From the NCBI GenBank assembly GCA_029552545.1, contig JAKPDO010000025.1, forward strand, positions 43,610 to 107,609: DNA of 64,000 nt, written 5' to 3'. Under the pieces are notes generated by a model. That model saw nothing but the letters and a program-made list of their open reading frames with translations, searched no databases and was not told where the DNA came from. Source of the DNA: Planctomycetota bacterium (lineage in GTDB: Bacteria; Planctomycetota; Phycisphaerae; Sedimentisphaerales; Anaerohalosphaeraceae). The translations under genes were made by a program, and so were the position numbers. The number at the start of each line of letters is the position of its first letter. The first letter of the stretch is position 1. Positions 2,047-62,014 of the stretch are shown in pieces.

Positions 2047-3045
2047 ATGAGAATTACCTGGAGAGGTTTGGAACTGCCGACGCGTGTGCAGAAGGACACG
2101 GATGTGTCTACCGATCGATACGGCCGGTTTATTATCGAGCCGTTTGAGCGGGGGTTCGGCACAACGATTGGGAACAGTCTTCGCCGGATTCTGCTTTCTT
2201 CGCTGGAAGGCAGTGCCGTTGAATCGATTAAGATTCAGAATGTCACGCATGAATTTACGTCTATCCCGGGAGTGATGGAGGATGTGACGGATATTGTATT
2301 GAATGTAAAGCGTCTGGTCGTTCGGATGCAGGGGGACCAGCGGCGGACGATGAAAGTGCAGGCGAACCAGGCCGGTCCGGTGACGGCGGGAATGATTGAA
2401 TGCGACCCGGCGATTGAAGTCATCAACAAGGATTTGGTGCTGGCGACGCTGACGGAGAATGTGCACTTTGAGATGGAAATGGTTGTGGGCAACGGGCGCG
2501 GGTATTCACCGGCTTCCGAGCGAATCGCCGCCGTTGACCGGTCGGAGCAGGAAATCGGCCGGATTGAGGTGGATGCGATTTATTCGCCGGTTCTGCGTGT
2601 CCGTTATAAGACGGAGGATACGCGTGTCGGCCAGCGGACCAACTACGACAAACTGATTCTGGAAATCTGGACGGACGGGACCGTCACGCCGGAGATGGCT
2701 CTGGTCGAAGCGGGCAAGATTCTTCGCAAGTACATCAACCCGATTGTTCAGTACGAACAGCTGGGTAAAGAAACGGTGGAAGAGGCGGTCCAGGCCGAGC
2801 CGCAGCCGGCTAAGGCGGTCAATGAAGAACTGGCGGCCAAACTGGCGATGCCGATTGAGCAGCTGGAACTGACGGTCCGCTCGAGCAATTGTCTGGAATC
2901 GAACAATATTCAGACCGTCGGCCAGCTGGTGAAGATGACCGAGGCGGACCTGCTGAAGATTCGCAGTTTCGGGAAAACCAGTCTGCGTGAGGTCAAGCGG
3001 AAACTGGCGGAACTCGGATTGTCCCTGGGAATGACCGGGGTCTAA
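2047..3045 (+). CDS. rpoA: DNA-directed RNA polymerase subunit alpha
   Basis: YGRFIIEPFERGFGTTIGNSLRRILLSSLEG in the N-terminal domain. The C-terminal HhH domain reads LELTVRSSNCLESNNIQTVGQLV. It sits in the conserved position after rpsD. Confidence 0.95.
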   Translation: MRITWRGLELPTRVQKDTDVSTDRYGRFIIEPFERGFGTTIGNSLRRILLSSLEGSAVESIKIQNVTHEFTSIPGVMEDVTDIVLNVKRLVVRMQGDQRRTMKVQANQAGPVTAGMIECDPAIEVINKDLVLATLTENVHFEMEMVVGNGRGYSPASERIAAVDRSEQEIGRIEVDAIYSPVLRVRYKTEDTRVGQRTNYDKLILEIWTDGTVTPEMALVEAGKILRKYINPIVQYEQLGKETVEEAVQAEPQPAKAVNEELAAKLAMPIEQLELTVRSSNCLESNNIQTVGQLVKMTEADLLKIRSFGKTSLREVKRKLAELGLSLGMTGV

Positions 3046-3084
3046 AGAAAGCGGGAAACGAAGACAGAATTGAGGTGATTGAAT

Positions 3085-3522
3085 ATGCGTCATCGGATAG
3101 CAGGAAGACAATTGGGGCGAACCAGCGAACATCGACTGGCCCTGCGTCGGAATCTGGCGGCTTCGCTGTTTGAACATGAAACGATTTCGACAACGCTGGA
3201 GAAGGCCAAAGAGGTCCGCGGATTTGCCGAGAAGCTGATTACACTGGCCAAGAAGGGCAATCTCCACGCCCGTCGGCAGGCCCTTCGGCTGCTGAACGAC
3301 CGGGCGATTTACAAAGAAGAGGACGGCCGAATGGTCAAGGTCGGCACCGTAATCGGCAAGCTTTTCAGCGACATCGGTCCCCGTTTTCTGGACCGGCCGG
3401 GCGGCTATACGCGAATCATTCGCCTGCCCAAGCACCGGCTCGGCGACAACGGGCGTCTGGTTCTGCTTCAATTGGTTGAGCAGGGCAAATCGGAACCGGA
3501 AAAGACCTCCAAGAAGTCCTAA
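3085..3522 (+). CDS. rplQ: 50S ribosomal protein L17
   Basis: The ORF-track start at 3079 is TTG; ATG 3085 gives MRHRIAGRQLGRTSEHRLALRRNL, the typical L17 N-terminus. Confidence 0.95.
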   Translation: MRHRIAGRQLGRTSEHRLALRRNLAASLFEHETISTTLEKAKEVRGFAEKLITLAKKGNLHARRQALRLLNDRAIYKEEDGRMVKVGTVIGKLFSDIGPRFLDRPGGYTRIIRLPKHRLGDNGRLVLLQLVEQGKSEPEKTSKKS

Positions 3523-3535
3523 GCGGATTTTCCAA

Positions 3536-3567
3536 AGCGGACGGCGGCACTGCGTCCGCTTTTTTTG
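3536..3567 (+). terminator. rho-independent terminator after rplQ
   Basis: Hairpin AAGCGGACG..CGTCCGCTT followed by TTTTTTT, 14 nt after the rplQ stop. Confidence 0.6.
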
Positions 3568-3590
3568 TCGGTTCAGGCGGGAGGATTCAG

Positions 3591-4007
3591 ATGGACGAAT
3601 GTGTGTTTTGCCGAATAGCCGCAGGGAAGATTCCCTCTGCGAAAATATTCGAAAACGAGGAGGTTCTGGCCTTTCTGGATATTGGTCCGGTATCGGATGG
3701 GCATACACTGGTGATCCCGAAACGTCATTACAGCCGACTGGATGAATGTCCGGCCCCGACACTTTCGAGTCTGGCAGCCGCTTTGTCCTGCACGGCCGGG
3801 GCCGTCCAAAAGGCGATGAAAGCGGATGGATACAATGTGCTGTGCAACAACGGCCGAGCGGCCGGACAGATTGTCGAGCACCTGCATTTTCATATTATCC
3901 CCAGAAAGACAGGGGATGGGCTGTTTCGGAACTGGCCGTCGTATTCCTATCCGGAAGGAAAGGCCGCTCAGATAGCCGAACAAATCCGCCGGATGCTCGA
4001 AAAATAA
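3591..4007 (+). CDS. HIT-family (histidine triad) nucleotide hydrolase
   Basis: CVFCRIAAGKIPS..., GHTLVIPKRH and the histidine-triad motif HLHFHIIP. Confidence 0.85.
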   Translation: MDECVFCRIAAGKIPSAKIFENEEVLAFLDIGPVSDGHTLVIPKRHYSRLDECPAPTLSSLAAALSCTAGAVQKAMKADGYNVLCNNGRAAGQIVEHLHFHIIPRKTGDGLFRNWPSYSYPEGKAAQIAEQIRRMLEK

Positions 4008-4063
4008 ATTGGATGAGCGGTTGCACAACGCCGGAAACTGTGGTATAGGAGATAAAATTTGAT

Positions 4064-4137
<74 letters not shown>

Positions 4138-4148
4138 GTGAAGAGCAA

Positions 4149-4177
4149 AGTCGGTCCGATAAGACCGGCTTTTTTTC
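4149..4177 (+). terminator. rho-independent terminator after tRNA-fMet
   Basis: An 8-bp stem AGTCGGTC/GACCGGCT with loop CGATAA, followed by TTTTTTT. Confidence 0.55.
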
Positions 4178-4291
4178 TTTATAAGGGATGATTTTTGAAT
4201 ATCGTATTCATGAAAGGTACACGACATTTTTATTCGGGAAATTACTTTTGAACACCGTCCTTTTATTCTATAATATTCTTCCTATTAAAAG

Positions 4292-4321
4292 TTGACATTT
4301 TTGGGGTTTCTGTGTTATAAT
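4292..4321 (+). promoter_or_regulatory. sigma70-type promoter candidate for the VTC operon
   Basis: TTGACA (4292-4297), an 18-nt spacer, then TGtTATAAT (extended -10, 4313-4321). It lies in a 330-bp AT-rich gap about 150 nt upstream of ATG 4473. Confidence 0.5.
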
Positions 4322-4472
4322 TCAGTTAGAATTAAATTAAATTATTTACAAGAGGGGCGGTTCTTCTTGCATTCGATAGGCGGGGTGCGGCAGAGACTTA
4401 GAGGGATGATGACAAAATTTGTCCGAATTTGATTTATTTTGGAAAGCAAATTATTCCGGCTGATTCGAAAAG

Positions 4473-5387
4473 ATGTTCAAAGGTTTTCTGAAAAGGAGAA
4501 AAGGGAGTTCGGGGGTTGAGCCGGTCAGGAGGAACCCTGCCAAGGGCGGGCTCACAAATGATACAGCCGAACATTCTCTTCCGACGGATTCAGAAACATT
4601 TCCAGAGCATCGGGTGATTGAGGAGGGAGCACGTGAGCCGGTTTGCCGGCAAGGAACAGATTTAACCTGCTGCCGTTATGAGCTGAAGTATCGAATTTCC
4701 GAAAGTAAGGCCCAAGCTATTCGAGATTATGTTCAGCATTATTTGTCGGTGGACAAATATGCGCTGATGTATCCGGACCGACAATATCCCATTTCAAGTC
4801 TCTACCTGGATTCACCGGATTTGTGTTTGTGCCGGGAAACTCTTACCGGCAAATCCAATCGTTTCAAACTGCGAATCCGGACTTACAGTGATTTGCCGAA
4901 AAGTCCGCTGTTTTTGGAAGTAAAGCGGCGGGTGAATAAAGTGATTGTCAAGAGCCGGGCTCGCATTGAACGGTCGGAGCTTCAGGCGGCCCTGGAGGGC
5001 ACGCTGGAGCTGCACGGACGTTCGGAGAAAGACCGCCAGGCGCTGAAGCAGTTTTTGTTTTACAAGCAGGCCCTTGGGGCCCAGCCGGTTGTGCTGGTTC
5101 GATATATGCGGGAACCTTTTGAAGGAGAAGGACAAAACCGAGTTCGGGTTACGTTTGACCGGCATCTGGAATTTCGGAAGCCCTTCGGGATGGAAGTAAC
5201 TCTGAACGGACAGGGATGGCAGGCAATTCCGCTGCCGTACGTGGTTTTGGAAATCAAGTTTACGGATCATTATCCGGCATGGCTGGAGGAGATGATTCGT
5301 CTGTTTAATCTGAATCTATCGTCAATGTCCAAGTATGTTTCGTCGGTGTCTTGCGTTTCACAGGGGCTTTTGGGATATTTGGAATGA
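4473..5387 (+). CDS. VTC-domain (polyphosphate-polymerase-like, triphosphate-tunnel fold) protein
   Basis: CCRYELKYRI.., FKLRIRTY, LFLEVKRR and VVLEIKF are alternating charged beta-strands typical of the VTC/CYTH-like tunnel family. The N-terminal ~65 aa are low-complexity. Confidence 0.85.
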   Translation: MFKGFLKRRKGSSGVEPVRRNPAKGGLTNDTAEHSLPTDSETFPEHRVIEEGAREPVCRQGTDLTCCRYELKYRISESKAQAIRDYVQHYLSVDKYALMYPDRQYPISSLYLDSPDLCLCRETLTGKSNRFKLRIRTYSDLPKSPLFLEVKRRVNKVIVKSRARIERSELQAALEGTLELHGRSEKDRQALKQFLFYKQALGAQPVVLVRYMREPFEGEGQNRVRVTFDRHLEFRKPFGMEVTLNGQGWQAIPLPYVVLEIKFTDHYPAWLEEMIRLFNLNLSSMSKYVSSVSCVSQGLLGYLE

Positions 5388-6082
5388 TGGAGAATCTGAA
5401 ACATTTGCTGAATGATTACTCCTCTCCGGCGGGAATGGATGCGGCGACGGTCGTTCTGTCTCTCCTGCTGGCCTTTGTACTCGGGCAAGTCCTGGCGTGG
5501 ATTTATTCGTTTACTCATCACGGGCTGTCGTATTCCAAATCCTTTGTGCAGTCTCTGATTGTGATTACGATGGTGGTTGCTCTTGTGATGACGACCATTG
5601 CGGGCAGTTTTGTGGTGGCGGTCGGGCTGATGGGGGCGCTTTCGATTATCCGGTTTCGAAATATGATTAAGGACACGCGGGACATTGCCTTTTTGTTCTG
5701 CGCCCTTGTGGTCGGAATGGCCTGCGGGTCGGGCCGGTATGCGATTGCCGTCATCGGCACGGCGGTCCTCGGGCTGGTCCTGCTGTATCTGTACTGGGCG
5801 GATTTCGGAGCGTTTCATTCGAGCAATGCGCTGCTTCGGTTTACCTTTCACGGGGAGCTGAACGCAGACCATCCGCTTTTTAAGGTGCTTCGGCGGTTTT
5901 GCCGAACGATTGTCCTGACATCTTCTCAAAGCCGCGGGCCGGATCGTTCCCGGATGGATTATGCATATCAGATTACTTTGCGTAAAGCGTCCCTGAATCA
6001 GCAGATGCTTTCCGAACTGCGGAAGATAGAAGGAATTGAGAATCTGAGTCTGGCGATTCAGGAGCAAATCCTTGAACTCTGA
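5384..6082 (+). CDS. DUF4956-like polytopic membrane protein
   Basis: The start ATG overlaps the VTC stop (ATGA at 5384-5387). About five hydrophobic helices, the ..LSIIRFRNMIKDTRDIAFLF.. motif remembered for DUF4956, and a soluble C-terminal ~80 aa. Confidence 0.8.
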   Translation: MMENLKHLLNDYSSPAGMDAATVVLSLLLAFVLGQVLAWIYSFTHHGLSYSKSFVQSLIVITMVVALVMTTIAGSFVVAVGLMGALSIIRFRNMIKDTRDIAFLFCALVVGMACGSGRYAIAVIGTAVLGLVLLYLYWADFGAFHSSNALLRFTFHGELNADHPLFKVLRRFCRTIVLTSSQSRGPDRSRMDYAYQITLRKASLNQQMLSELRKIEGIENLSLAIQEQILEL

Positions 6083-6086
6083 CAGG

Positions 6087-7235
6087 ATGTCATTTCAGAA
6101 AAGGACGGGACGGGTCCTGACCGGTGTGCTGCCGGTTCTGGTATGGTTGGCAGCGGTGGGGGCGGTGTGTTTTCTTTTTGTTTATCGAAATTCCCGTTTT
6201 ACGACGGTTGGAATTGCCAATGCTCAGACCTGTGTTTTTACGGCTCCTGATTCCGGGTGGCTGATTTCCATGCCGGTACACTTGTATCAGCAGGTTCATC
6301 AGGGGCAGCCGCTGGCGGTTCTGCGGCTGGTTCCGCCGACGGAAATCGAGCGGGCTCGAGCCCAGGTCGAAGCGGAAAAAGCAGCGGTTTTGGCGGAGCT
6401 GGAGTATCGGAAACTCCAGGTTGAGCAAATGCTCCGTCAGCTGGCCGGCGACCAGTCTCGAGAGCAAATGGAGCAGCTGTATCGGGAGCATCAGGTAGCT
6501 CTTGACGCAGAAAAAACCCGCTTATTGATTCTTGAAATTCAATCCCGCCTTGAGCCGGCCAGGATTCAATTGAAAGACCTTGAAACAGAGAAAAAGGTTT
6601 TGGAAAACCTGCTGGCGAAAAAGGCCATTGAGCCGTATGAACTGCAGAAGGTTTCGGTTCAGGCGGAGGCCCTTGCGGCTCAGATTGCTCAGGATGAACG
6701 GCAGCTGGTTGAGGCCAGGCAGGATTTGGAGGCGATCCAAAGTCGTCTGCAGGCCTTCCGCGCTTCTTCACGGCTTTCTTCAGAACAGATGCTTTCCCTG
6801 GAACCGCTTCAGAAGGCCATTGCGCTTCAGGAAAAACGTCTGGAGGAACTTTCGGCGATTGATTTTGATGTGGTTCTGGAAGCTCCCTTTGACGGGATTG
6901 TTGCCTCTATCGGCTGTGCCGTCGGCCAGACCGTCAGCAAGGATATGCCGATTCTTACGCTGGCGGCTCCGTCCGCCGATTTTGTGACGGCCTGGGTTCC
7001 TCAGGAGCAAAGCGGTTCCGTCACGCTGCATCAGCCGGTCGAAATCATCAAGATGTCCTCTCCTCGAAAGGTGCTGCGTTCCGAAGTGGCAGAAATGGGG
7101 CCGATGGTGGAGCTGATGCCGGAGCGATTGTGGAAAAACCCGTCGGTTCCGGAATGGGGCAGGCCTGTTCGGATTCCGGTGCATCCGGAGATGCAGCTGC
7201 TTCCGAATGAACTGGTCGGGGTTCGGGGTATTTAG
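6087..7235 (+). CDS. HlyD-family periplasmic adaptor (membrane fusion protein)
   Basis: ATG lies 4 nt after the DUF4956 stop (the ORF-track start at 6072 is TTG). N-terminal TM anchor, split lipoyl-like halves (..GQPLAVL.. / ..APFDGIVASIGCAVGQTV..) flanking a ~150-aa coiled coil, then a beta-barrel tail. Confidence 0.8.
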   Translation: MSFQKRTGRVLTGVLPVLVWLAAVGAVCFLFVYRNSRFTTVGIANAQTCVFTAPDSGWLISMPVHLYQQVHQGQPLAVLRLVPPTEIERARAQVEAEKAAVLAELEYRKLQVEQMLRQLAGDQSREQMEQLYREHQVALDAEKTRLLILEIQSRLEPARIQLKDLETEKKVLENLLAKKAIEPYELQKVSVQAEALAAQIAQDERQLVEARQDLEAIQSRLQAFRASSRLSSEQMLSLEPLQKAIALQEKRLEELSAIDFDVVLEAPFDGIVASIGCAVGQTVSKDMPILTLAAPSADFVTAWVPQEQSGSVTLHQPVEIIKMSSPRKVLRSEVAEMGPMVELMPERLWKNPSVPEWGRPVRIPVHPEMQLLPNELVGVRGI

Positions 7236-7250
7236 CCGCGGTTCTTTTGA

Positions 7251-8939
7251 ATGGATAAGGGCCTCCGAAAAGAAATGAAAAAGAGTTTGTTCCAAATTTC
7301 CGGAGGTTTTCGTTTTGTTCTCCTTCTGACCGCAGGGGTTGTAGGATGCTCTCTGAACCCGGAAAAAGTCAGCCGACAGACGGATGAGAAAGTCTATTCT
7401 CTTCTGGAGAAGCGCTGGGATGAGTCTTTCGGCCGTGCGGAGGAATATCAGATTGAGCCCTTTTCGCCGCAGATGCGTCAGGAGCGTCTGAAAGTATTAG
7501 AAGGCGGTTCTGTGCTCACACTGGCTAAGGCGGCGGAACTTGCGGTGACCAATACCCACGAATATCAGCAGGCCAAAGAGCAGCTTTATCTGACGGCGCT
7601 GGATTTACGGGATGTGCAGCATCTGTATGAGTGGACGCCGTTTGCGCGGGCAACCGGGGGATATGCCAAAGAAGGAGACCGGGATGGGGAAGGAGGACGG
7701 GAGGGGGCGGGGGCTGCGGGAGAGGGGGGAATCAGCAAACTGCTGGCAAGCGGGACTGTGGTTACGTCCGGCTTATCGGTTGGGTATATGGATGTGTTGT
7801 CGGGGGATTTCCGAAGCGGTCTGCAGACAATCTTTCAGGCGGCAATTACCCAGCCGCTTCTTCGCGGGGCGGATCGGAAGGTCGTTCTGGAGGCGCTGAC
7901 GCAGGCCGAGCAGGATACGCTGTATGCTGTTCGGGACTTCAATCGTTTTCGGCAGACCTTTCTGGTTTCCATTGTAACCGAGTATTACCGGCTGCTTCTT
8001 TATCAGATTCAGATGAAAAACAGCCGGGAGCATTATCTTCGAATGCTTTCGATTTATGACAAGATGGCTCCTCTGGTTCAGGCCGGACGTCTGCCCGCCT
8101 TCGAGCTGGAGCAGGCCCGACAGGACAAAATTCGTGCCTGGGACAGCTACCTTCAGGCCAAACAGATGTATGAGACTCATAAGGACGCCCTGAAGCTGAT
8201 GCTGAATATTCCGCAGGAGACCTCTGTAGAACCGGATGAAAACGAATGGGCGGCTCTGGAGGAAGGACTGAAGGAGCCGCCTTTGACGGAGGAACAGGCG
8301 GTCGAGGCCGCACTGGATCAGCGTCTGGATTTGGCGAATGCGTATGACCGCACCCTCGATGCCCAGCGCCATGTGGAAGTAGCGGCGGATGCCCTGAAGG
8401 CGGATTTGACCCTTGTCGGTCTGTACAGCCCTGCTAATGACGGGAATCGGCGCTATGCATTCGGGGCCGATCCGGGTGATTTGCAGCGGGTTCGCGACCG
8501 CTATGAAGCCACCCTTCGGCTGGACCTGCCGCTGGATCGGGAGATGGAGAAAAATAATTACAAACGGGCCCTGATTGCCCTGGCTCAGCAGCAGAGGAAT
8601 CATCAAAAACTGACGGACCAGATTGTGCTGGAGGTGCGCAAGGCCTATCGGGATTGCCAGAAAGCCCGGGAGCGTTATCAGGTCCAGAAAGAGGCCTGGC
8701 AGCTGGCTCGGGAGCGGCTGGACAAGACCCTCGAGCTGATGCAGGTTGCCAGGGCCAAAAGCCGGGATGTGCTGGATGCTCAAAAAGATTATTATCAGGC
8801 CCGGCAGGCCTTTGCAGAGTCTGTGTTTGACTATTCGACGGCTCTATTGGAGATGTACCGAGATACGGGGATGCTTTGGGTGAAGTCGAAGGGAAGATGG
8901 GAAATTCGAACGGCATCTTCCGGCGGTGCCGAACGGTAG
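7251..8939 (+). CDS. TolC-family outer-membrane channel protein
   Basis: Two repeats of the OEP helical pattern (AELAVTNTHEYQQAKEQLYLTALDL.. and ..LDLANAYDRTLDAQRHVEVAAD..). A possible lipoprotein signal (LLLTAGVVGCS) appears if the start is ATG 7275. Contains a Gly/Glu-rich insert. Confidence 0.85.
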   Translation: MDKGLRKEMKKSLFQISGGFRFVLLLTAGVVGCSLNPEKVSRQTDEKVYSLLEKRWDESFGRAEEYQIEPFSPQMRQERLKVLEGGSVLTLAKAAELAVTNTHEYQQAKEQLYLTALDLRDVQHLYEWTPFARATGGYAKEGDRDGEGGREGAGAAGEGGISKLLASGTVVTSGLSVGYMDVLSGDFRSGLQTIFQAAITQPLLRGADRKVVLEALTQAEQDTLYAVRDFNRFRQTFLVSIVTEYYRLLLYQIQMKNSREHYLRMLSIYDKMAPLVQAGRLPAFELEQARQDKIRAWDSYLQAKQMYETHKDALKLMLNIPQETSVEPDENEWAALEEGLKEPPLTEEQAVEAALDQRLDLANAYDRTLDAQRHVEVAADALKADLTLVGLYSPANDGNRRYAFGADPGDLQRVRDRYEATLRLDLPLDREMEKNNYKRALIALAQQQRNHQKLTDQIVLEVRKAYRDCQKARERYQVQKEAWQLARERLDKTLELMQVARAKSRDVLDAQKDYYQARQAFAESVFDYSTALLEMYRDTGMLWVKSKGRWEIRTASSGGAER

Positions 8940-58798: not shown

Positions 58799-59161
58799 GT
58801 GTATCCGGCCGAATCAGCCGGCTTTCGAATTCAAAAGGAAGGAAAAGGGTTGGAAAAGGAATCGGAAAAACTTCAGTCGATTCAGTCGCAGATTGACGAG
58901 CTGAACAATCTGCTTTCTGAGGTGATTGAACCGGTACCGCCGCCGTCGCCGCGGCTGGAACGGCTGGGGATATTGCTGCTGAAGCTGCAGGACGGTGTGT
59001 TGGAGGACCGTTTTGTGCGCCGGCTGGAAAAATGGCTGAAGGCCGACCCGGAGGCGATGGACTATTATCTAGACTTTATGATGCTTGCGGCCCTGCTTCG
59101 ACTGCATTTTCATCCGGAGGGCCTGCCCAGTCCGGCCGCCGCAGCCGCAAAACCTTCCTGA
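58799..59161 (+). CDS. orphan anti-sigma-factor N-terminal-like fragment (no TM or sensor domain)
   Basis: LERLGILLLKLQDGVLEDRFVRRLEKWLKADPEAMDYYLDFMMLAALLRL parallels the N-terminus of the FecR protein at 31246..32961 (LFTLLGALRDEAITREEFEELSSLLKNYPQAQELYIDYVYLCTDL). The start codon is uncertain (GTG). Confidence 0.4.
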   Translation: MYPAESAGFRIQKEGKGLEKESEKLQSIQSQIDELNNLLSEVIEPVPPPSPRLERLGILLLKLQDGVLEDRFVRRLEKWLKADPEAMDYYLDFMMLAALLRLHFHPEGLPSPAAAAAKPS

Positions 59162-59464
59162 ATACATACCCTATATCATCAAACCATTTGTTGACACTCT
59201 TTGTTGGCACTCTGCCCGGTGGTGAAGAAAAGTTTAAATTTTTGGTTTTTTCTTGACGGATTCGGACGGGGGCGGGGTAATTATAATCGCAAACTTCGAG
59301 AGTACGCACCAAAGCGGTCGGTCGTAAACAATTAGGCAGGAGAAAATCAGGGCCAGGGCAGACGGATAAGGAGTCCTTATATTGGAAGAATTCCCTTTTC
59401 TTGCACCCACGGGGACGGAGTCTATCCTGAAAAGGGAGGTTTTGCGGAAATCCGGCGGAAAATA

Positions 59465-60286
59465 ATGTCCGGTTCAGTTTTTGCACAACAGGCGAGCGGA
59501 GTTGGATTGTGCAAAGTTATGCAGATGCTCCGTACGGGTCGAGGGGGTTCAGATTGCCGATTTTCAATTTTCAATTTTCGATTGGGCCGGCGGTGGGACA
59601 GTACAGCACAGCTGTATTATTCCCGGATGCGTGATTATTCGCCGCAGCTGGGCCGTTTTCTCCAGCCCGACCCGGCGGGGTACATCGATAGGATGAATCT
59701 GTATGCCTATGTAGGCAACAACCCGCTTAATTGGCTCGACCCATGGGGGCTTTTGCAGACAGAAAAGTATATGAGCCGTCGGGATAAAGCGGTTAGGACG
59801 GCAGCAAGGGTTGTTAATGCGATGATACCTCCCGAGAAATACACCACAGGAATCCAGAATATTTGTCGGGGAGTCTCGTACCTAACCAGTGGAGCCGCGG
59901 CTGTTATAGGTTCAGGAGGGACTGTTATTCCACTCATTGGCGCTTCGGCGGTGTCCGGAGGTATAATATCTGTTGGAGCAGGCAGTGCCCAGGTTATCAT
60001 TGCTGGTGTCAATCCTGCCAAACTCAGCGCTGCGAATCGTATTCCTGCGTCTTATGCTGAAGCAGTAGGTCTTGCTGTAGGAAGAATAGCAGGCACCCCA
60101 GACGCCGGACAAAAAATCGGGACAATCGTCAATTCTGCAGTGGGAATGGGGCAAGCAGTTTATGGGCTTAGCCAAGCCCAAACGGGACTCGAAATAGTGG
60201 AGGGTTCAATCTCGGCGGTATCCGCACTGCAGTCTGCAGGAGAAGCAGTTGCCGACATCGCAGAAACAAAAAACAGCAGCCGCTGA
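59465..60286 (+). CDS. orphan Rhs-family core-end + C-terminal toxin domain (glycine-zipper rich)
   Basis: FRLGRRWDSTAQLYYSRMRDYSPQLGRFLQPDPAGYIDRMNLYAYVGNNPLNWLDPWGL is the conserved end of the Rhs/YD shell. It is followed by a 180-aa variable CT rich in G-x-x-x-G/A runs (GAAAVIGSGGTVIPLIGASAVSGGIISVGAGSAQVIIAG). No YD-repeat shell lies upstream. Confidence 0.75.
   Translation: MSGSVFAQQASGVGLCKVMQMLRTGRGGSDCRFSIFNFRLGRRWDSTAQLYYSRMRDYSPQLGRFLQPDPAGYIDRMNLYAYVGNNPLNWLDPWGLLQTEKYMSRRDKAVRTAARVVNAMIPPEKYTTGIQNICRGVSYLTSGAAAVIGSGGTVIPLIGASAVSGGIISVGAGSAQVIIAGVNPAKLSAANRIPASYAEAVGLAVGRIAGTPDAGQKIGTIVNSAVGMGQAVYGLSQAQTGLEIVEGSISAVSALQSAGEAVADIAETKNSSR
59660..59749 (+). repeat. Rhs core-end repeat, copy 1
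   Basis: A 90-nt segment about 91% identical by eye (about 8 mismatches) to 61183..61272. It encodes LQPDPAGYIDRMNLYAYVGNNPLNWLDPWG. Confidence 0.8.
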
Positions 60287-60303
60287 ACTCTGAGGAAAAG
60301 GGG

Positions 60304-60522
60304 ATGTTCAGTTTTTGGCGGTTGTTGGCAAAACCGAAAAACGGAGATGTAAAAATGGTTATCGATCTTGATTCTGTGCTTATGGTGAACAATGCATTTA
60401 TGTTCGTTCTTGGTTTGACGGCATTCGTATATGGGTTGTTTGTGAAAAATAGAGTTGCGATTGTCGTCGGTCTTGTGCTTTTTTTGGGAAATCTTATCCT
60501 GTTCATTCAGGATTTATGGTGA
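60304..60522 (+). CDS. small two-TM membrane protein, candidate immunity protein
   Basis: Starts 17 nt after the toxin stop, with RBS AGGAAAAGGGG. Sequence ..NNAFMFVLGLTAFVYGLFV..VAIVVGLVLFLGNLILFI. Confidence 0.5.
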   Translation: MFSFWRLLAKPKNGDVKMVIDLDSVLMVNNAFMFVLGLTAFVYGLFVKNRVAIVVGLVLFLGNLILFIQDLW

Positions 60523-60566
60523 ATCAGAATTCTTCTTCGGGATCGTTTTAGGGAAACTGCCGTAAA

Positions 60567-60740
60567 ATGAGCAACACAGAGAAGAAGCCCCGTCCGATGT
60601 GGTTGAAGGTGTGGATTTATGTTTCGCCTCTTTTGGGATTTATTGGTTATTTGATTATAGCAAGGGCATTTTTTCAGGAATTGGATTGGAAAACGAGATT
60701 CATTATTGGTCTTTGTCCGACCCTGCTCGGCTATGCGTAA
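60567..60740 (+). CDS. small membrane protein (57 aa), not in ORF track
   Basis: ATG 60567 to TAA 60738-60740: MSNTEKKPRPMWLKVWIYVSPLLGFIGYLIIARAFFQELDWKTRFIIGLCPTLLGYA. This is preferred over the overlapping GTG ORF 60599..60781. Confidence 0.35.
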   Translation: MSNTEKKPRPMWLKVWIYVSPLLGFIGYLIIARAFFQELDWKTRFIIGLCPTLLGYA

Positions 60741-60784: not shown

Positions 60785-61173
60785 ATGAAAGCAAATCGCC
60801 GGCATTTGTATTTCTTTGAGATTCTTATTTGTTTTCTTAGTTCTGTGTTGGGCGGGATTTTACTCAGCAGCCTTTCGTGGTATTTGTTGGGGCTGGGGGA
60901 CCGTTCGGATGTTTTATTGGGGCTGATTTTGGGGATGCCGCTGGGGGGCTGGTAGGGCTGCTTTTTTCAAAGAAGATTCTGAAAATATCTTTTTCCATCT
61001 GGGGCCTAATCGTTGGGCTGCTGGCTGCGATGGCAGAGGTTGTTCTGTGTCTCTTTTTGACGGATTTGTTCGGCAATCTTATGCTGTTGACTATTCCAGG
61101 TATCATTGCAATATCTTTTGTGGGAATTACCCGCATGATGAGTCCAAAACAAAGAACAGAAGCGACGAAGTAA
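60785..61173 (+). CDS. small Gly/Leu-rich membrane protein, possibly one gene split at a G6 run
   Basis: ATG 60785 (RBS AAGGGA) reads MKANRRHLYFFEILICFLSS... and stops at 60955. ORF 60877..61173 continues in the +2 frame. One extra G in the run at 60943-60948 would fuse them. Confidence 0.3.
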
Positions 61174-61182
61174 TACGAAACT

Positions 61183-61272
61183 CTCCAGCCCGATCCAGCG
61201 GGGTACATCGATGGGATGAACCTGTATGCCTATGTCAGCAACAACCCGCTCAATTGGCTCGACCCATGGGGG
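61183..61272 (+). repeat. Rhs core-end repeat, copy 2 (start-less remnant)
   Basis: Encodes LQPDPAGYIDGMNLYAYVSNNPLNWLDPWG with no upstream start codon; the frame opens right after the TAA at 61171-61173. Only 12 codons follow before TGA 61306-61308, and they overlap the 3' end of dedA. Confidence 0.8.
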
Positions 61273-61291
61273 TATGAAAACCTTCGGCGGT

Positions 61292-61900
61292 TCAGCGGAA
61301 GAGTTTGAGGGCGGCAAAGCCGCCGGCCAGCAGGATGATAAAGGCCAAAGACAGCCAGTTGAAATATTTTTCAATGAAGGGACGGATGGCCTGACCTTTC
61401 CAGCCGAACAGCCCGGCAATCAGGAAAAAACGGGCTGAACGGCTTATCAGTGAGGCAATCACAAACCCCGCAAAATTGATTTGCGCAATCCCGGCCGTAA
61501 TCGTGCACACCTTATAGGGCAGCGGGGTAAATCCGCAGGTAAAGACAATCCAGAAATCATACCGGTCATACCATCTCTGAAACGCGGCAAAGTTGGCTTC
61601 CGTAAATCCCAGCGGGGCCAAATGCGTCATCACCCAGCCGCCGATGCTCGACCAGAGAAACATCCCGATGGCGTAGCCGAGAATGCCGCCGAGGACGGAG
61701 GCGATGGAGCAGGACAGGGCGAATCGAAACCATTTGCGGGGGGCTCCGAGGGTCAGCGGGGCCAAAAGTACATCCGGCGGGATGGGAAAGAAGCTGGATT
61801 CGGCAAAACTGAGCAGGAAGAGTGCTTTTTCGCCATGCGGAGTCTCGGCAAAGTGAATCACCCAGTTATAGAGCCGGCGGTGCCAGTGCCACCATGGCAA
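61292..61900 (-). CDS. DedA/YqaA-family (SNARE-associated) membrane protein
   Basis: ..RRLYNWVIHFAETPHGEKALFLLSFAESSFFPIPPDVLLAPL.. The family N-terminus has no in-frame ATG, so TTG 61900 is proposed as the start. The remaining ~250 ORF-track codons are antisense to ispE and were rejected. Confidence 0.75.
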   Translation of the reverse strand: MPWWHWHRRLYNWVIHFAETPHGEKALFLLSFAESSFFPIPPDVLLAPLTLGAPRKWFRFALSCSIASVLGGILGYAIGMFLWSSIGGWVMTHLAPLGFTEANFAAFQRWYDRYDFWIVFTCGFTPLPYKVCTITAGIAQINFAGFVIASLISRSARFFLIAGLFGWKGQAIRPFIEKYFNWLSLAFIILLAGGFAALKLFR

Positions 61901-62014
61901 TGACGGCGGATTTGCGGATGCAGATTGTGTTTGTTCCAAAGCCGGCTCCTGCAGAACTCTTTTCTTTTTGCGGGGATAATATATACTGCTTCCGGAAAAG
62001 TCAAGGAGAACACG

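What the first reader, a model, noticed from the sequence alone, without database searches (positions are those of the whole stretch)
59465..60740. Orphan Rhs C-terminal toxin cassette: a core-end motif fused to a glycine-zipper-rich CT, followed by small membrane proteins that could confer immunity
Seen: ORF 59465-60286 contains the hallmark end of the Rhs shell (..WDSTAQLYYSRMRDYSPQLGRFLQPDPAGYIDRMNLYAYVGNNPLNWLDPWGL). No YD-repeat body lies upstream; the in-frame stop is at 59333. Homology begins right after a 3x ATTTTCA microsatellite at 59560-59580.

The 180-aa CT is dominated by G-x-x-x-G/A/S runs (GAAAVIGSGGTVIPLIGASAVSGGIISVGAGSAQVIIAG ... AVGMGQAVYGLSQAQTG).

It is followed at 17 nt by a 72-aa two-TM protein and then by further tiny TM proteins. 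The region is visibly more AT-rich than its surroundings.

Established knowledge: Rhs toxins carry polymorphic CT domains after the DPxGL motif, with the immunity gene immediately downstream. Orphan CT/immunity modules are kept as recombination substrates. At least one Rhs CT (Pseudomonas Tse5, from memory) is a glycine-zipper pore former.

Inference: this is a membrane-depolarising CT of unassigned family, with a membrane-embedded immunity protein.
Basis: partly seen in the sequence, partly recalled or inferred. Interest (0 to 1): 0.6.

Follow-up and report, generated by a model that had tools for sequence, protein, structure and literature searches.

The report
Headless Rhs toxin-tip and immunity cassette
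This is the leftover tail of an Rhs bacterial-warfare toxin gene carrying a rare glycine-rich toxin tip, probably membrane-attacking, and small membrane "antidote" genes, in a genome with no complete Rhs gene to fire it: an ordinary kind of element with a new, uncharacterised tip.

Summary
The sequence facts hold. ORF 59465-60286 carries the last 56 residues of the Rhs core (TIGR03696, E 2e-19), including an intact DPxGx-(18)-DPxGL motif, then a 177-aa C-terminal tip (CT). Small two-TM ORFs follow.

- **No delivery machinery:** no YD-repeat shell exists in this 99.97%-complete genome, and no T6SS sheath or PAAR gene.
- **Locus history:** two sister genomes have the same site with only a fossil Rhs tail. 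A third has a different CT plus a different membrane protein there. Here the cassette lies between two copies of a 91-nt core-end repeat, so cassettes were exchanged by recombination at a headless fossil.
- **Leader:** a genus-specific promoter-like leader lies directly upstream.
- **CT family:** four known members, all fused to Rhs cores. There is no Pfam, PDB or PHROG match, and the only invariant residues are nine Gly, one Glu and one Tyr.
- **Glycine zipper:** not supported. GxxxG-type spacing is at chance level and absent from the hydrophobic core. Gly recurs every 7-8 residues instead.
- **Toxin mode:** membrane action is plausible but inferred.
- **Immunity:** the downstream ORFs are conserved only in position and topology.

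This scan has reported headless Rhs arrays before on other DNA. Verdict: a new member of a known kind, of modest interest.

The parts
59236..59430 (+). Promoter-like leader: T-rich tract, TTGACG (59253-59258), 17 nt, GGTAAT (59276-59281), then a conserved GGA-rich core (about 59329-59427).
   Evidence: Homologous copies exist in G000 (C7, C10, C16) and in G003, G004 and G005, at 2-4 per genome. It was not found in 37 other genomes of the family. Copies lie 5' of Rhs tails, of TPR genes and of an RCC1 gene. There is no Rfam match. RNAalifold gives -8.9 kcal/mol and one covarying pair. GGA occurs 7 times against 3.0 +/- 1.4 in shuffles. The consensus promoter scan did not flag it.
59465..60286 (+). 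273-aa ORF: about 40 residues of non-Rhs or fossil sequence, the end of the Rhs core, and the CT.
   Evidence: Different gene callers placed its start at four different codons (273, 259, 255 and 219 aa).
59543..59547 (+). G5 run with one G more than in G003, G004 and G005. It takes the core out of the ancestral frame (GTG 59509, ..QSYAD.PY..) and puts it in frame with ATG 59465.
   Evidence: DNA alignment of the locus in four genomes and ORF tables.
59552..59584 (+). 7-nt periodic tract (GATTGCC GATTTTC AATTTTC AATTTTC GATTG) inside the fossil Rhs tail. It has the same length in the sister genomes.
59585..59752 (+). End of the Rhs-associated core (aa 41-96) with DPAGY-(18)-DPWGL.
   Evidence: TIGR03696, E 1.9e-19. 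It also matches the core ends of solved Rhs/Tc structures.
59659..59749 (+). Direct repeat, copy 1 (core-end coding sequence).
   Evidence: 91 nt, 92% identical to 61182-61272.
59753..60283 (+). CT-A, a 177-aa variable toxin tip of an unassigned four-member family.
   Evidence: Only P0079, P0081 and P0003 are related, and all are fused to Rhs cores. There is no Pfam, NCBIfam, PHROG, PDB or plasmid match. It was not found in 400 genomes of the class.
59849..60007 (+). Gly/Ala/Ser-rich, moderately hydrophobic segment (aa 129-181) that holds eight of the nine invariant glycines, spaced 7-8 residues apart.
   Evidence: Alignment A1, hydropathy and periodicity test.
60304..60522 (+). s1, a 72-aa two-TM ORF and the candidate cognate immunity protein.
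   Evidence: A 62-72-aa two-TM ORF lies 17-38 nt after the CT in all four loci of the family. GC is 0.384. Sequence homology between the loci is not demonstrable.
60567..60740 (+). s2, a 57-aa hydrophobic ORF and a second small membrane protein of the cassette.
   Evidence: A second small TM ORF (57-87 aa) follows s1 in all four loci. In L012 the next Rhs fragment starts right after it, which bounds the cassette.
60785..61173 (+). s3/s4, two overlapping hydrophobic frames (56 aa and 98 aa) that would form one multi-TM protein of about 129 aa but for a frame break at the G6 run 60943-60948.
Evidence: There is no counterpart in the other three loci.
61174..61308 (+). Second core-end remnant with no start codon (LQPDPAGYIDGMNLYAYVSNNPLNWLDPWG + YENLRRFSGRV*). 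Repeat copy 2 is 61182-61272. Its tail overlaps the 3' end of the convergent dedA.
   Evidence: The same ..RRFSGRV* / ..GFSGRV* tail ends the fossil in G003 and G005.
61292..61939 (-). dedA-type (VTT domain) gene, the conserved right flank of the locus. It is not part of the cassette.
   Evidence: PF09335 on the orthologue in L009. Synteny dedA-ispE-spoVG holds in G003, G004 and G005.

Best explanation
This is a headless ("orphan") Rhs toxin-tip/immunity cassette lodged in a fossil Rhs tail.

**Shown**
- The locus between the carboxynorspermidine-synthase-like gene and dedA holds, throughout the genus, a degenerate remnant of the last ~70 codons of an Rhs gene, behind a genus-specific promoter-like leader.
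- In this genome a ~1.4-kb block lies between two copies of the core-end sequence. The block holds CT-A, s1, s2 and s3/s4.
- A sister genome has an unrelated CT and a 308-aa membrane protein in the same place. Two other sister genomes have the bare fossil.

**Inferred**
- The block entered by homologous recombination within the conserved core-end coding sequence, taken from a donor array of the type [core end-CT-immunity-next core end]. This is the way orphan arrays grow.
- CT-A is a non-enzymatic, membrane-active toxin. A short amphipathic N-helix and a conserved ..PEKY.. motif precede a ~50-residue Gly/Ala/Ser-rich hydrophobic segment that would insert and oligomerise in the target's cytoplasmic membrane and dissipate its potential.
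- s1, perhaps with s2, is the membrane-embedded immunity protein that blocks CT-A within the bilayer.
- With no shell, export signal or T6SS, the toxin cannot be delivered from this genome. The module's present value to the cell is most likely protection against neighbours that fire the same tip, with the small ORFs transcribed from the retained leader.
For: **Identity**
- TIGR03696 match and intact DPxGx-(18)-DPxGL motif.

**Headless state**
- No PF05593 or PF25023 match in a genome that is 99.97% complete.
- Only five core-end fragments in the genome, all in open frames of 316 aa or less.
- No VipB/TssC and no PAAR.

**Cassette exchange**
- 91-nt direct repeat at 92% identity flanking the block.
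- G004 and G005 carry a single fossil with no CT. G003/L009 carries the fossil, CT-B, a 308-aa TM protein and a second fossil. All four share the flanks and the ..FSGRV* tail.
- The block has GC 0.462, the 3rd percentile of genome windows.
- Neither the CT nor s1 was found in sister or class genomes.
- L012 shows the donor-type array: Rhs fragment+CT1, immunity, Rhs fragment+this CT family, s1, s2, next Rhs fragment.
- In the CDI systems of Poole et al. 2011 (PMC3150448, Fig. S4 legend), homology between orphan modules runs from one delimiting motif (VENN) to the next. This is the analogue of the core-end-to-core-end block here.

**Toxin mode**
- All four family members are fused to Rhs cores.
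- The only invariant residues are nine Gly, one Glu and one Tyr, so no catalytic-type polar residue is conserved.
- The hydrophobic segment peaks at KD19 of 1.80 here and 2.08 in L012.
- Predicted helices are amphipathic (muH about 0.4).
- Small two-TM ORFs follow the CT in four of four loci.
- This parallels Tse5-CT/Tsi5, where Tsi5 has two predicted TM regions (PMC9637101), and the CDI ionophore toxins with their specific CdiI immunity proteins (PMC11630599).

**Expression**
- The conserved leader has an invariant TTGAC and lies directly 5'.
- In the TPR copies of the same leader, a GGAG-ATG start ends the element. The TPR gene behind it in G005 is the orthologue (57% identity, E 3e-135) of the TPR gene that precedes a full-length 1566-aa Rhs in G001.
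Against:
- The window's copy of the leader has a weaker -10 and was not flagged by the consensus scan.
- The SD-like AAGGGAGG lies 24 nt upstream of ATG 59465, too far for standard initiation.
- Membrane activity is inferred from composition only.
  - L011 and L010 peak at KD19 of 1.27 and 1.42, below 1.6.
  - The two AlphaFold2 models have pLDDT of 47 and disagree on the Gly-rich segment: strands in one, a helical hairpin in the other.
- A profile built from the s1 (or s2) of the other three loci does not recover the window's s1 or s2 among 42,074 genome ORFs. The immunity assignment therefore rests on position, size and topology.
- The direction of the event is not resolved. G004 and G005 could have lost a cassette by recombination between the repeats.
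- The genome is in 58 contigs, and some of them end at these repeats (C16 start, C10 end). A full-length rhs gene missed by assembly or binning cannot be excluded.
Confidence: 0.6

Rival explanations
1. The locus is a dead relic. The whole block is a decaying by-product of past recombination. Neither the CT ORF nor the small ORFs are expressed or useful, and it persists only because it arrived recently.
For: - The second fossil has no start codon, and s3/s4 is frame-broken.
- The fossil tail is visibly eroding in G004 (DPWG degraded to DLQG) and in G005 (internal deletion).
- The SD for ATG 59465 is misplaced.
- No delivery machinery exists.
- All sampled copies of the ORF are identical, so selection cannot be measured.
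Against: - CT-A (177 codons), s1 and s2 are all intact.
- A conserved promoter-like leader lies directly upstream.
- In characterised orphan CDI modules the immunity gene is expressed and functional (PMC3150448).
Confidence: 0.2
2. The module expresses itself as an addiction-like pair. The extra G at 59543-59547 fuses ATG 59465 to the core and CT, so the leader drives a cytoplasmic, unshielded toxin. The co-transcribed membrane proteins must neutralise it, which stabilises the cassette like a toxin-antitoxin pair.
For: - The ORF is open from an ATG that is present only in the two genomes that hold cassettes, G000 and G003.
- The leader lies directly upstream.
- Tse5-CT and EsxX are toxic from the cytoplasm (PMC9637101, PMC12744356).
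- s1 starts 17 nt after the CT stop.
Against: - In G003 the ATG frame stops after 76 codons and is not the CT frame, so the ATG is not tied to CT translation.
- There is no SD at a working distance.
- Orphan CTs generally lack initiation signals (PMC3150448, PMC3967940).
- There are no expression data.
Confidence: 0.12
3. The CT is a toxin but not a pore former. It acts on an envelope or periplasmic target, for example by binding a lipid-linked precursor or a membrane protein. Alternatively the Gly-rich segment is an entry/translocation module. The small TM proteins are then simply membrane-anchored immunity factors.
For: - Hydrophobicity is sub-threshold in two of the four members.
- No true glycine zipper is present.
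- CDI toxins combine an entry domain with a toxin domain (PMC11630599).
- The C-terminal ~90 residues are absent from P0003, which suggests a modular build.
Against: - No conserved catalytic-type residue exists.
- No similarity to any enzymatic family was found.
- The only part shared by all four members is the Gly-rich hydrophobic segment itself.
Confidence: 0.2
4. This rival concerns only the direction of the event. The two-fossil arrangement with a cassette is ancestral. G004 and G005 lost their cassette by recombination between the core-end repeats, and G000 and G003 merely swapped contents.
For: - Direct repeats of 91 nt at 92% identity are deletion-prone.
- G005's single fossil has a deletion resembling that of G003's second copy.
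- G000 and G003 are each other's closest relatives at the flanks: 88-94% identity against 85%.
Against: - The cassettes of G000 and G003 are unrelated, and their second fossil copies start at different points (LQPDP.. against ARKYIYGPG..). This needs at least one independent insertion anyway.
Confidence: 0.35

Closest known systems
Orphan rhs-CT/rhsI and cdiA-CT/cdiI modules of Enterobacteria (Poole et al. 2011, PMC3150448; Koskiniemi et al. 2014, PMC3967940)
   Same: - A 5'-truncated fragment keeps only the conserved motif-coding end and is followed by a variable CT and a small downstream gene.
- The homology block runs from one delimiting motif to the next.
- Content varies between related strains.
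- No export signal is present.
   Different: - The fossil sits behind its own conserved promoter-like leader.
- An in-frame ATG precedes the fragment.
Pseudomonas aeruginosa Tse5 (RhsP1) CT and Tsi5 (PMC9637101)
   Same: - The CT follows DPxGL-(18)-DPxGL.
- The size is similar: 149 aa against 177 aa.
- Neither has a predicted enzymatic function.
- The immunity candidate has two predicted TM segments.
   Different: - No sequence similarity was detected. A profile of the family against all PDB chain sequences gave nothing at E of 10 or below. The Tse5 chain that matched (8cp6_B) ends at the core, so the CT may not be represented.
- Tse5 has a PAAR-like N-terminus, a full shell and a T6SS. None of these is present here.
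CDI ionophore toxins and their polymorphic CdiI proteins (PMC11630599)
   Same: - They are non-enzymatic membrane-depolarising polymorphic toxin tips.
- Their immunity proteins share only about 30% identity within a group, which matches the 20-26% identity among the s1 proteins.
   Different: - The delivery scaffold differs (CdiA/two-partner secretion).
- No sequence relation was found.
- Those toxins carry a putative glycine zipper in one helix, which this CT lacks.
Glycine-zipper LXG toxins TelE, EsxX and TspA of Gram-positive T7SS (PMC12744356)
   Same: - They are Gly-rich, membrane-depolarising C-terminal toxin domains.
- They have membrane-bound immunity proteins.
   Different: - The defining extended GxxxG zipper is absent from the hydrophobic core here.
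- The scaffold and the phylum differ.
Headless Rhs cassette arrays reported earlier by this scan in other genomes (notes e1-3233989, e1-4150734 and others; AI notes, unchecked)
   Same: - They are shell-less Rhs tails with immunity genes.
- One planctomycete case is said to carry a conserved promoter-and-start cassette.
   Different: - They are in other genomes with other CT families, and I did not verify them.
- Here the sister-genome comparison also shows the empty site and an alternative cassette at the same locus.

Membership tests
Rhs / YD-repeat polymorphic toxin (complete gene) | YD-repeat shell (PF05593 RHS_repeat / PF25023 YD-shell) | tested here: not met
   There is no hit in the ORF and none in the whole genome at E of 0.01 or below. 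Controls rang in the expected genomes.
Rhs / YD-repeat polymorphic toxin (complete gene) | Rhs-associated core domain ending in DPxGx-(18)-DPxGL | tested here: met
   TIGR03696 positions 21-76 of 76, E 1.9e-19. DPAGY-(18)-DPWGL was read directly from the sequence. Only the last three quarters of the 76-position model are present.
Rhs / YD-repeat polymorphic toxin (complete gene) | N-terminal delivery or export domain (PAAR, signal peptide, etc.) | tested here: not met
   The N-terminal 40 residues have no hydrophobic stretch. There is no PAAR or TssC in the genome. The full-length Rhs of sister genome G001 starts with a signal-peptide-like sequence, which is absent here.
Orphan rhs-CT/immunity module | 5'-truncated fragment keeping core-end homology, then a CT unrelated to that of relatives at the same site | tested here: met
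   P0002 is 90% identical over the first 25% of the ORF (fossil leader and core end), and its CT is different.
Orphan rhs-CT/immunity module | Located downstream of a main, full-length rhs gene | tested here: not met
   Upstream lie a 120-aa ORF and a carboxynorspermidine-synthase-like gene. There is no full-length rhs gene in the genome.
Orphan rhs-CT/immunity module | Lacks translation initiation signals | tested here: inconclusive
   In-frame ATG 59465, TTG 59507 and ATG 59519 exist, and gene callers used them. The only strong SD-like motif is 24 nt upstream of ATG 59465.
Orphan rhs-CT/immunity module | Cognate immunity gene immediately downstream that neutralises the CT | not testable with these tools
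   Position, size and two-TM topology are conserved in four of four loci. Sequence homology is not demonstrable. Neutralisation needs an experiment.
Glycine-zipper membrane toxins | Extended (G/A/S)xxxGxxxG or GxxxGxxx(G/S/T) motif in the membrane segment (definition from PMC12744356) | tested here: not met
   There are 0 strict motifs and 0 GxxxG in aa 127-184. The whole CT has 2 against 1.5 expected (P=0.45). Homologues have 0, 1 and 3. Gly recurs at i+7/i+8 instead (P=0.011 and 0.036).
Glycine-zipper membrane toxins | Depolarises the target membrane | not testable with these tools
   This needs a dye or bilayer assay.
Tse5-CT family | Sequence or structural similarity to Tse5-CT | tested here: inconclusive
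   The profile gave no PDB sequence match. The matching Tse5 chain stops at the core. AF2 models were too poor for a fold search.

The most novel reading that the evidence does not exclude
In this genus, Rhs operons are repeatedly "decapitated". The TPR gene and the shell are deleted, while the operon's own GGA-rich promoter-leader is kept and fused to the last codons of the core. These expressed stumps then act as landing pads that capture foreign toxin-tip/immunity cassettes by recombination at the core end. Here a one-base insertion has also put an ATG in frame, so an unshielded membrane toxin and its membrane antidotes would be made together. That would be a self-stabilising, delivery-independent module, not a silent spare part.
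Probability: 0.15. Interest if true: 0.55.

Novelty: new member of a known kind. Interest (0 to 1): 0.3.

Why it matters
The finding adds an uncharacterised, very rare Rhs toxin-tip family. It has four members among billions of predicted proteins, and none is seen on an intact, full-length Rhs. Its conserved feature is a ladder of glycines every 7-8 residues and not a GxxxG zipper. If it forms pores, it would broaden the sequence rules used to recognise membrane-active polymorphic toxins.

The four-genome comparison gives a clean natural example of cassette gain or exchange at an Rhs stump with no functional rhs gene present: an empty fossil, cassette A and cassette B at one site. This bears on the open question of why bacteria keep orphan toxin fragments and not only the immunity genes. 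The repeated leader is a candidate regulatory element for secreted-protein genes in an uncultured planctomycete-like genus.

Tried and rejected
1. **Heptamer copy number as a frame switch.** I first thought a third ATTTTCA unit shifted the frame relative to the relative L009. The alignment shows that the tract has the same length in all genomes. The frame difference is one extra G at 59543-59547.
2. **Structure route.** Two AlphaFold2 runs, on the window CT and on the L012 homologue with the four-sequence alignment, gave pLDDT of 46.9 and 47.4 and contradictory secondary structure. I ran no fold search, because matches to such models are meaningless.
3. **Enlarging the CT family.** All of these added nothing:
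   - the profile search of 5.8 billion proteins;
   - pattern scans of genome and metagenome contigs;
   - the six-frame profile search of 400 class genomes;
   - tblastn on plasmids.
   Two representative-library hits, P0078 and P0080, are repeat proteins matched by many short stretches. I rejected them as spurious.
4. **Sequence homology of the small ORFs.** Leave-one-out HMMs failed. s1 has no relative in 40 related genomes.
5. **Leader as a known or structured RNA.** Rfam gave no match at E of 1 or below on seven copies. RNAalifold gave a weak fold with one compensatory pair.
6. **TPR remnant in G003:C16.** The ORF between the leader and the Rhs tail there is not detectably TPR-derived (E 1.7). 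The collapsed TPR-Rhs operon idea therefore rests only on the shared leader and the G001 operon.
Full report
**1. What is in the sequence**

ORF 59465-60286 (273 aa) is real. Residues 41-96 match the Rhs-associated core model TIGR03696 over positions 21-76 of 76 (E 1.9e-19). They also match the core ends of solved Rhs and Tc-toxin C proteins. The motif reads DPAGY-(18 residues)-DPWGL, the spacing given for the Rhs aspartyl-protease site in PMC9637101.

The upstream in-frame stop is at 59333-59335, and the three 7-nt units lie at 59560-59580. A 72-aa two-TM ORF starts 17 nt after the stop. More small hydrophobic ORFs follow at 60567-60740 and at 60785-61173, the latter in two overlapping frames.

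The feature does not end at 60740. A second core-end fragment with no start codon lies at 61174-61308. Its 91-nt repeat (61182-61272) is 92% identical to 59659-59749. Its tail overlaps the convergent dedA gene.

**2. The genome has no Rhs shell**

PF05593 and PF25023 find nothing in the 3.09-Mb assembly, which is 99.97% complete and in 58 contigs. My own scan for long YD-rich frames found none that is an Rhs.

TIGR03696 finds five core ends, all in short open frames:
- the two in this window;
- one at the very start of contig C16;
- two in a second headless array on C7, at about 374.9-378.3 kb.

There is no T6SS sheath gene (VipB/TssC) and no PAAR. Sister genomes of the genus do have full-length genes. 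G001 has a 1566-aa Rhs with a signal-peptide-like N-terminus, directly downstream of a 646-aa TPR protein.

Caveat: several contigs end at these repeated elements, so a full-length gene lost in assembly or binning cannot be excluded.

**3. The same locus in sister genomes**

The flanks are conserved in G003, G004 and G005. On the left are a carboxynorspermidine-synthase-like gene and a ~100-145-aa ORF. On the right are dedA, ispE and spoVG.

| Genome | Content between the flanks |
|---|---|
| G004, G005 | Leader plus one degenerate Rhs tail (..GP[GR]ASDCQLPIFNF[RQ]LCRR[WR]D..YYSRMRDYSPQLGRFLQPDP..). No CT and no small ORFs. The tail is eroding: DPWG has become DLQG in G004, and G005 has an internal deletion |
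| G003 (same as metagenome contig L009) | The tail fused to an unrelated CT (P0002), a 308-aa multi-TM protein, then a second copy of the tail |
| G000 (this window) | The tail fused to CT-A, then s1, s2, s3/s4, then a partial second copy starting at LQPDP |

The tail ends ..RRFSGRV* in G000 and G003 and ..GFSGRV* in G005. In G004 the same bases are read in another frame.

The heptamer tract is part of this fossil and has the same length everywhere. The window differs by one extra G at 59543-59547. This takes the core out of the ancestral frame (GTG 59509) and puts it in frame with ATG 59465.

The simplest reading is insertion of a donor block [core end-CT-immunity genes-next core end] by two crossovers within the core-end sequence. 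Metagenome contig L012 shows exactly such a donor-type array for this CT family. In CDI systems, Poole et al. described orphan homology blocks that run from one delimiting motif (VENN) to the next, which is the analogue (PMC3150448). Loss from G004 and G005 by recombination between the repeats is the alternative direction, and I could not exclude it.

The block has GC 0.462 (3rd percentile), and the small-ORF part has 0.426 (1.4th percentile), against 0.544 for the genome.

**4. The leader**

Window 59236-59430 belongs to a repeated element. In order, it has:
- a T-rich tract;
- an invariant TTGAC;
- a -10-like hexamer 16-17 nt later;
- about 170 nt of conserved, GGA-rich sequence (7 GGA against 3.0 +/- 1.4 in shuffles);
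- in the best-preserved copies, GGAG followed by the ATG of the downstream gene.

It occurs 2-4 times per genome in G000, G003, G004 and G005. It was not found in 37 other genomes of the family. Copies lie 5' of:
- TPR genes (G004:C45, G005:C45, G003:C1);
- an RCC1-repeat gene (G000:C7);
- Rhs tails (G000:C16, G003:C16, G004:C47, and this locus in all four genomes).

The TPR gene behind the leader in G005 is the orthologue (57% identity, E 3e-135) of the TPR gene that precedes the full-length Rhs in G001. The fossil may therefore be a collapsed leader-TPR-Rhs operon. That is a hypothesis only: a presumed TPR remnant in G003:C16 did not hold up.

The element matches no Rfam family and shows almost no covariation. 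csrA is present in the genome, so a CsrA-type leader is a speculation worth testing. In the window's copy the -10 is weaker, the consensus scan did not flag it, and the SD-like AAGGGAGG lies 24 nt from ATG 59465.

**5. The toxin tip**

A full HMMER pass over 1.84 billion representative proteins found only two credible relatives, P0079 and P0081. The word-indexed searches added P0003. All three are fused to Rhs core ends, in short or 5'-truncated contexts.

Nothing matched in Pfam, NCBIfam, PHROGs, PDB sequences, plasmids, 400 genomes of the class, or pattern scans of the genome and metagenome collections.

The four sequences share 25-27% identity. The invariant residues are E, Y and nine glycines. 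Eight of the glycines lie in a ~50-residue Gly/Ala/Ser/Val/Ile segment (aa 129-181) at spacings of 7, 7, 8, 8, 6-7 and 7-8. No His, Asp, Cys, Lys or Ser is conserved, which argues against an enzyme.

The glycine-zipper reading fails a direct test:
- small-xxx-small and strict zipper counts equal the shuffled expectation;
- the core has no GxxxG at all;
- Gx6G is enriched.

Hydrophobicity is borderline. The peak 19-residue Kyte-Doolittle mean is 1.80 here and 2.08 in L012, but 1.27 in L011 and 1.42 in L010. The flanking predicted helices are moderately amphipathic. Both AlphaFold2 models are unusable.

**6. The small ORFs**

In all four loci the CT is followed within 17-38 nt by a 62-72-aa ORF with two hydrophobic segments and a basic loop. 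A second small TM ORF (57-87 aa) then follows. In L012 the next Rhs fragment begins right after it, so CT+s1+s2 is the unit.

Pairwise identity is 20-26% for s1. A leave-one-out profile does not pick the window's s1 or s2 out of 42,074 genome ORFs. The conservation is therefore positional and topological only. This is compatible with fast-diverging immunity proteins (about 30% identity within CdiI groups; PMC11630599) but does not prove it.

s3/s4 has no counterpart elsewhere and is frame-broken at a G6 run.

**7. How it most likely works**

Shown:
- it is an Rhs core-end stump with a foreign CT and small membrane ORFs;
- cassette content differs between sister genomes at one site;
- no shell or delivery system is detectable.

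Inferred:
- the CT is a non-enzymatic, membrane-inserting toxin whose glycine ladder allows tight packing or oligomerisation;
- s1, with or without s2, blocks it in the bilayer, as Tsi5 does for Tse5;
- in this genome the useful product is immunity, transcribed from the retained leader.

Rivals: a dead relic; a self-expressed toxin-antidote (addiction-like) pair, made possible by the in-frame ATG; a toxin that is not a pore former. I rate the identity of the element at about 0.9, exchange by recombination at about 0.75, membrane action at about 0.5-0.6, and retained immunity function at about 0.5.

**8. Comparison and novelty**

The closest known things are the orphan rhs-CT/rhsI modules of Enterobacteria (PMC3150448, PMC3967940). 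This differs in having no main gene and in having its own leader.

In mode it most resembles Tse5-CT/Tsi5 and the CDI ionophores, without detectable homology. It does not meet the motif definition of the glycine-zipper toxins.

Earlier notes of this scan report headless Rhs arrays in several other phyla, including a planctomycete with a conserved promoter-and-start cassette, so the architecture is not new to the scan. I file it as a new member of a known kind, with an unassigned toxin-tip family, and rate interest at 0.3.

**9. Limits**

HHpred, AFDB fold search and multimer modelling were not available. All copies of the ORF in the protein collection are identical, so selection could not be measured.

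Noticed in passing
window 59236-59430; also G000:C7:217666-218006(-), C10:92577-92858(+), C16:351-535(-); loci L023-L035: A genus-restricted repeated leader: T-rich tract, TTGAC, -10-like hexamer, and about 170 nt of conserved GGA-rich sequence. The best-preserved copies end in GGAG and an ATG. It lies upstream of TPR, RCC1 and Rhs-tail genes. It has no Rfam match and little covariation. csrA is present in the genome, so it may be a CsrA-type regulatory leader.
   Followed up: partly
L037 (G001:C24:1500-9304), ORFs 690-2630 and 2682-7382: An intact two-gene unit in a sister genome: a 646-aa TPR protein directly followed by a 1566-aa Rhs with a signal-peptide-like N-terminus. This suggests Sec-dependent, T6SS-independent Rhs export with a TPR partner in this genus.
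   Followed up: partly
window 60785-61173 (G6 run at 60943-60948): Two overlapping hydrophobic frames (56 and 98 aa) would make one multi-TM protein of about 129 aa if the G run were one base different. This could be a pseudogene, slippage or an assembly error. It has no counterpart in the other loci of the CT family.
   Followed up: partly
G000:C7:374385-378284 (- strand): A second headless array in the same genome. It has a 309-aa Rhs tail+CT, a 344-aa signal-peptide protein, a 271-aa fragment with a degenerate core end plus a Cys-rich CT, and a 192-aa TM protein. No shell gene is adjacent.
   Followed up: partly
G000:C16:1-535 (- strand): A copy of the leader directly 5' of a 141-aa Rhs tail whose CT runs off the contig end. 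This shows that the assembly breaks at these repeats.
   Followed up: no
L010:1-768 and 752-2194: In the metagenome contig that carries the CT homologue P0003, cadherin/Ig-like repeats in one frame run straight into the last ~360 residues of an Rhs shell in another frame. This is either a frameshifted larger surface protein or another truncated fusion.
   Followed up: no
window 58799-59161: A 120-aa ORF resembling the N-terminal helices of an anti-sigma factor. It is conserved at the same place in G004 (103 aa) and G005 (145 aa), so it is a stable neighbour of the fossil and not debris of the cassette.
   Followed up: no
window 59552-59584 and the equivalent in G003 (both copies), G004, G005: A 7-nt periodic tract, (G/A)ATT(G/T)(C/T)C repeated four times, is embedded in the coding remnant and conserved in length across genomes and across both fossil copies of G003. 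Only the unit sequence varies.
   Followed up: yes
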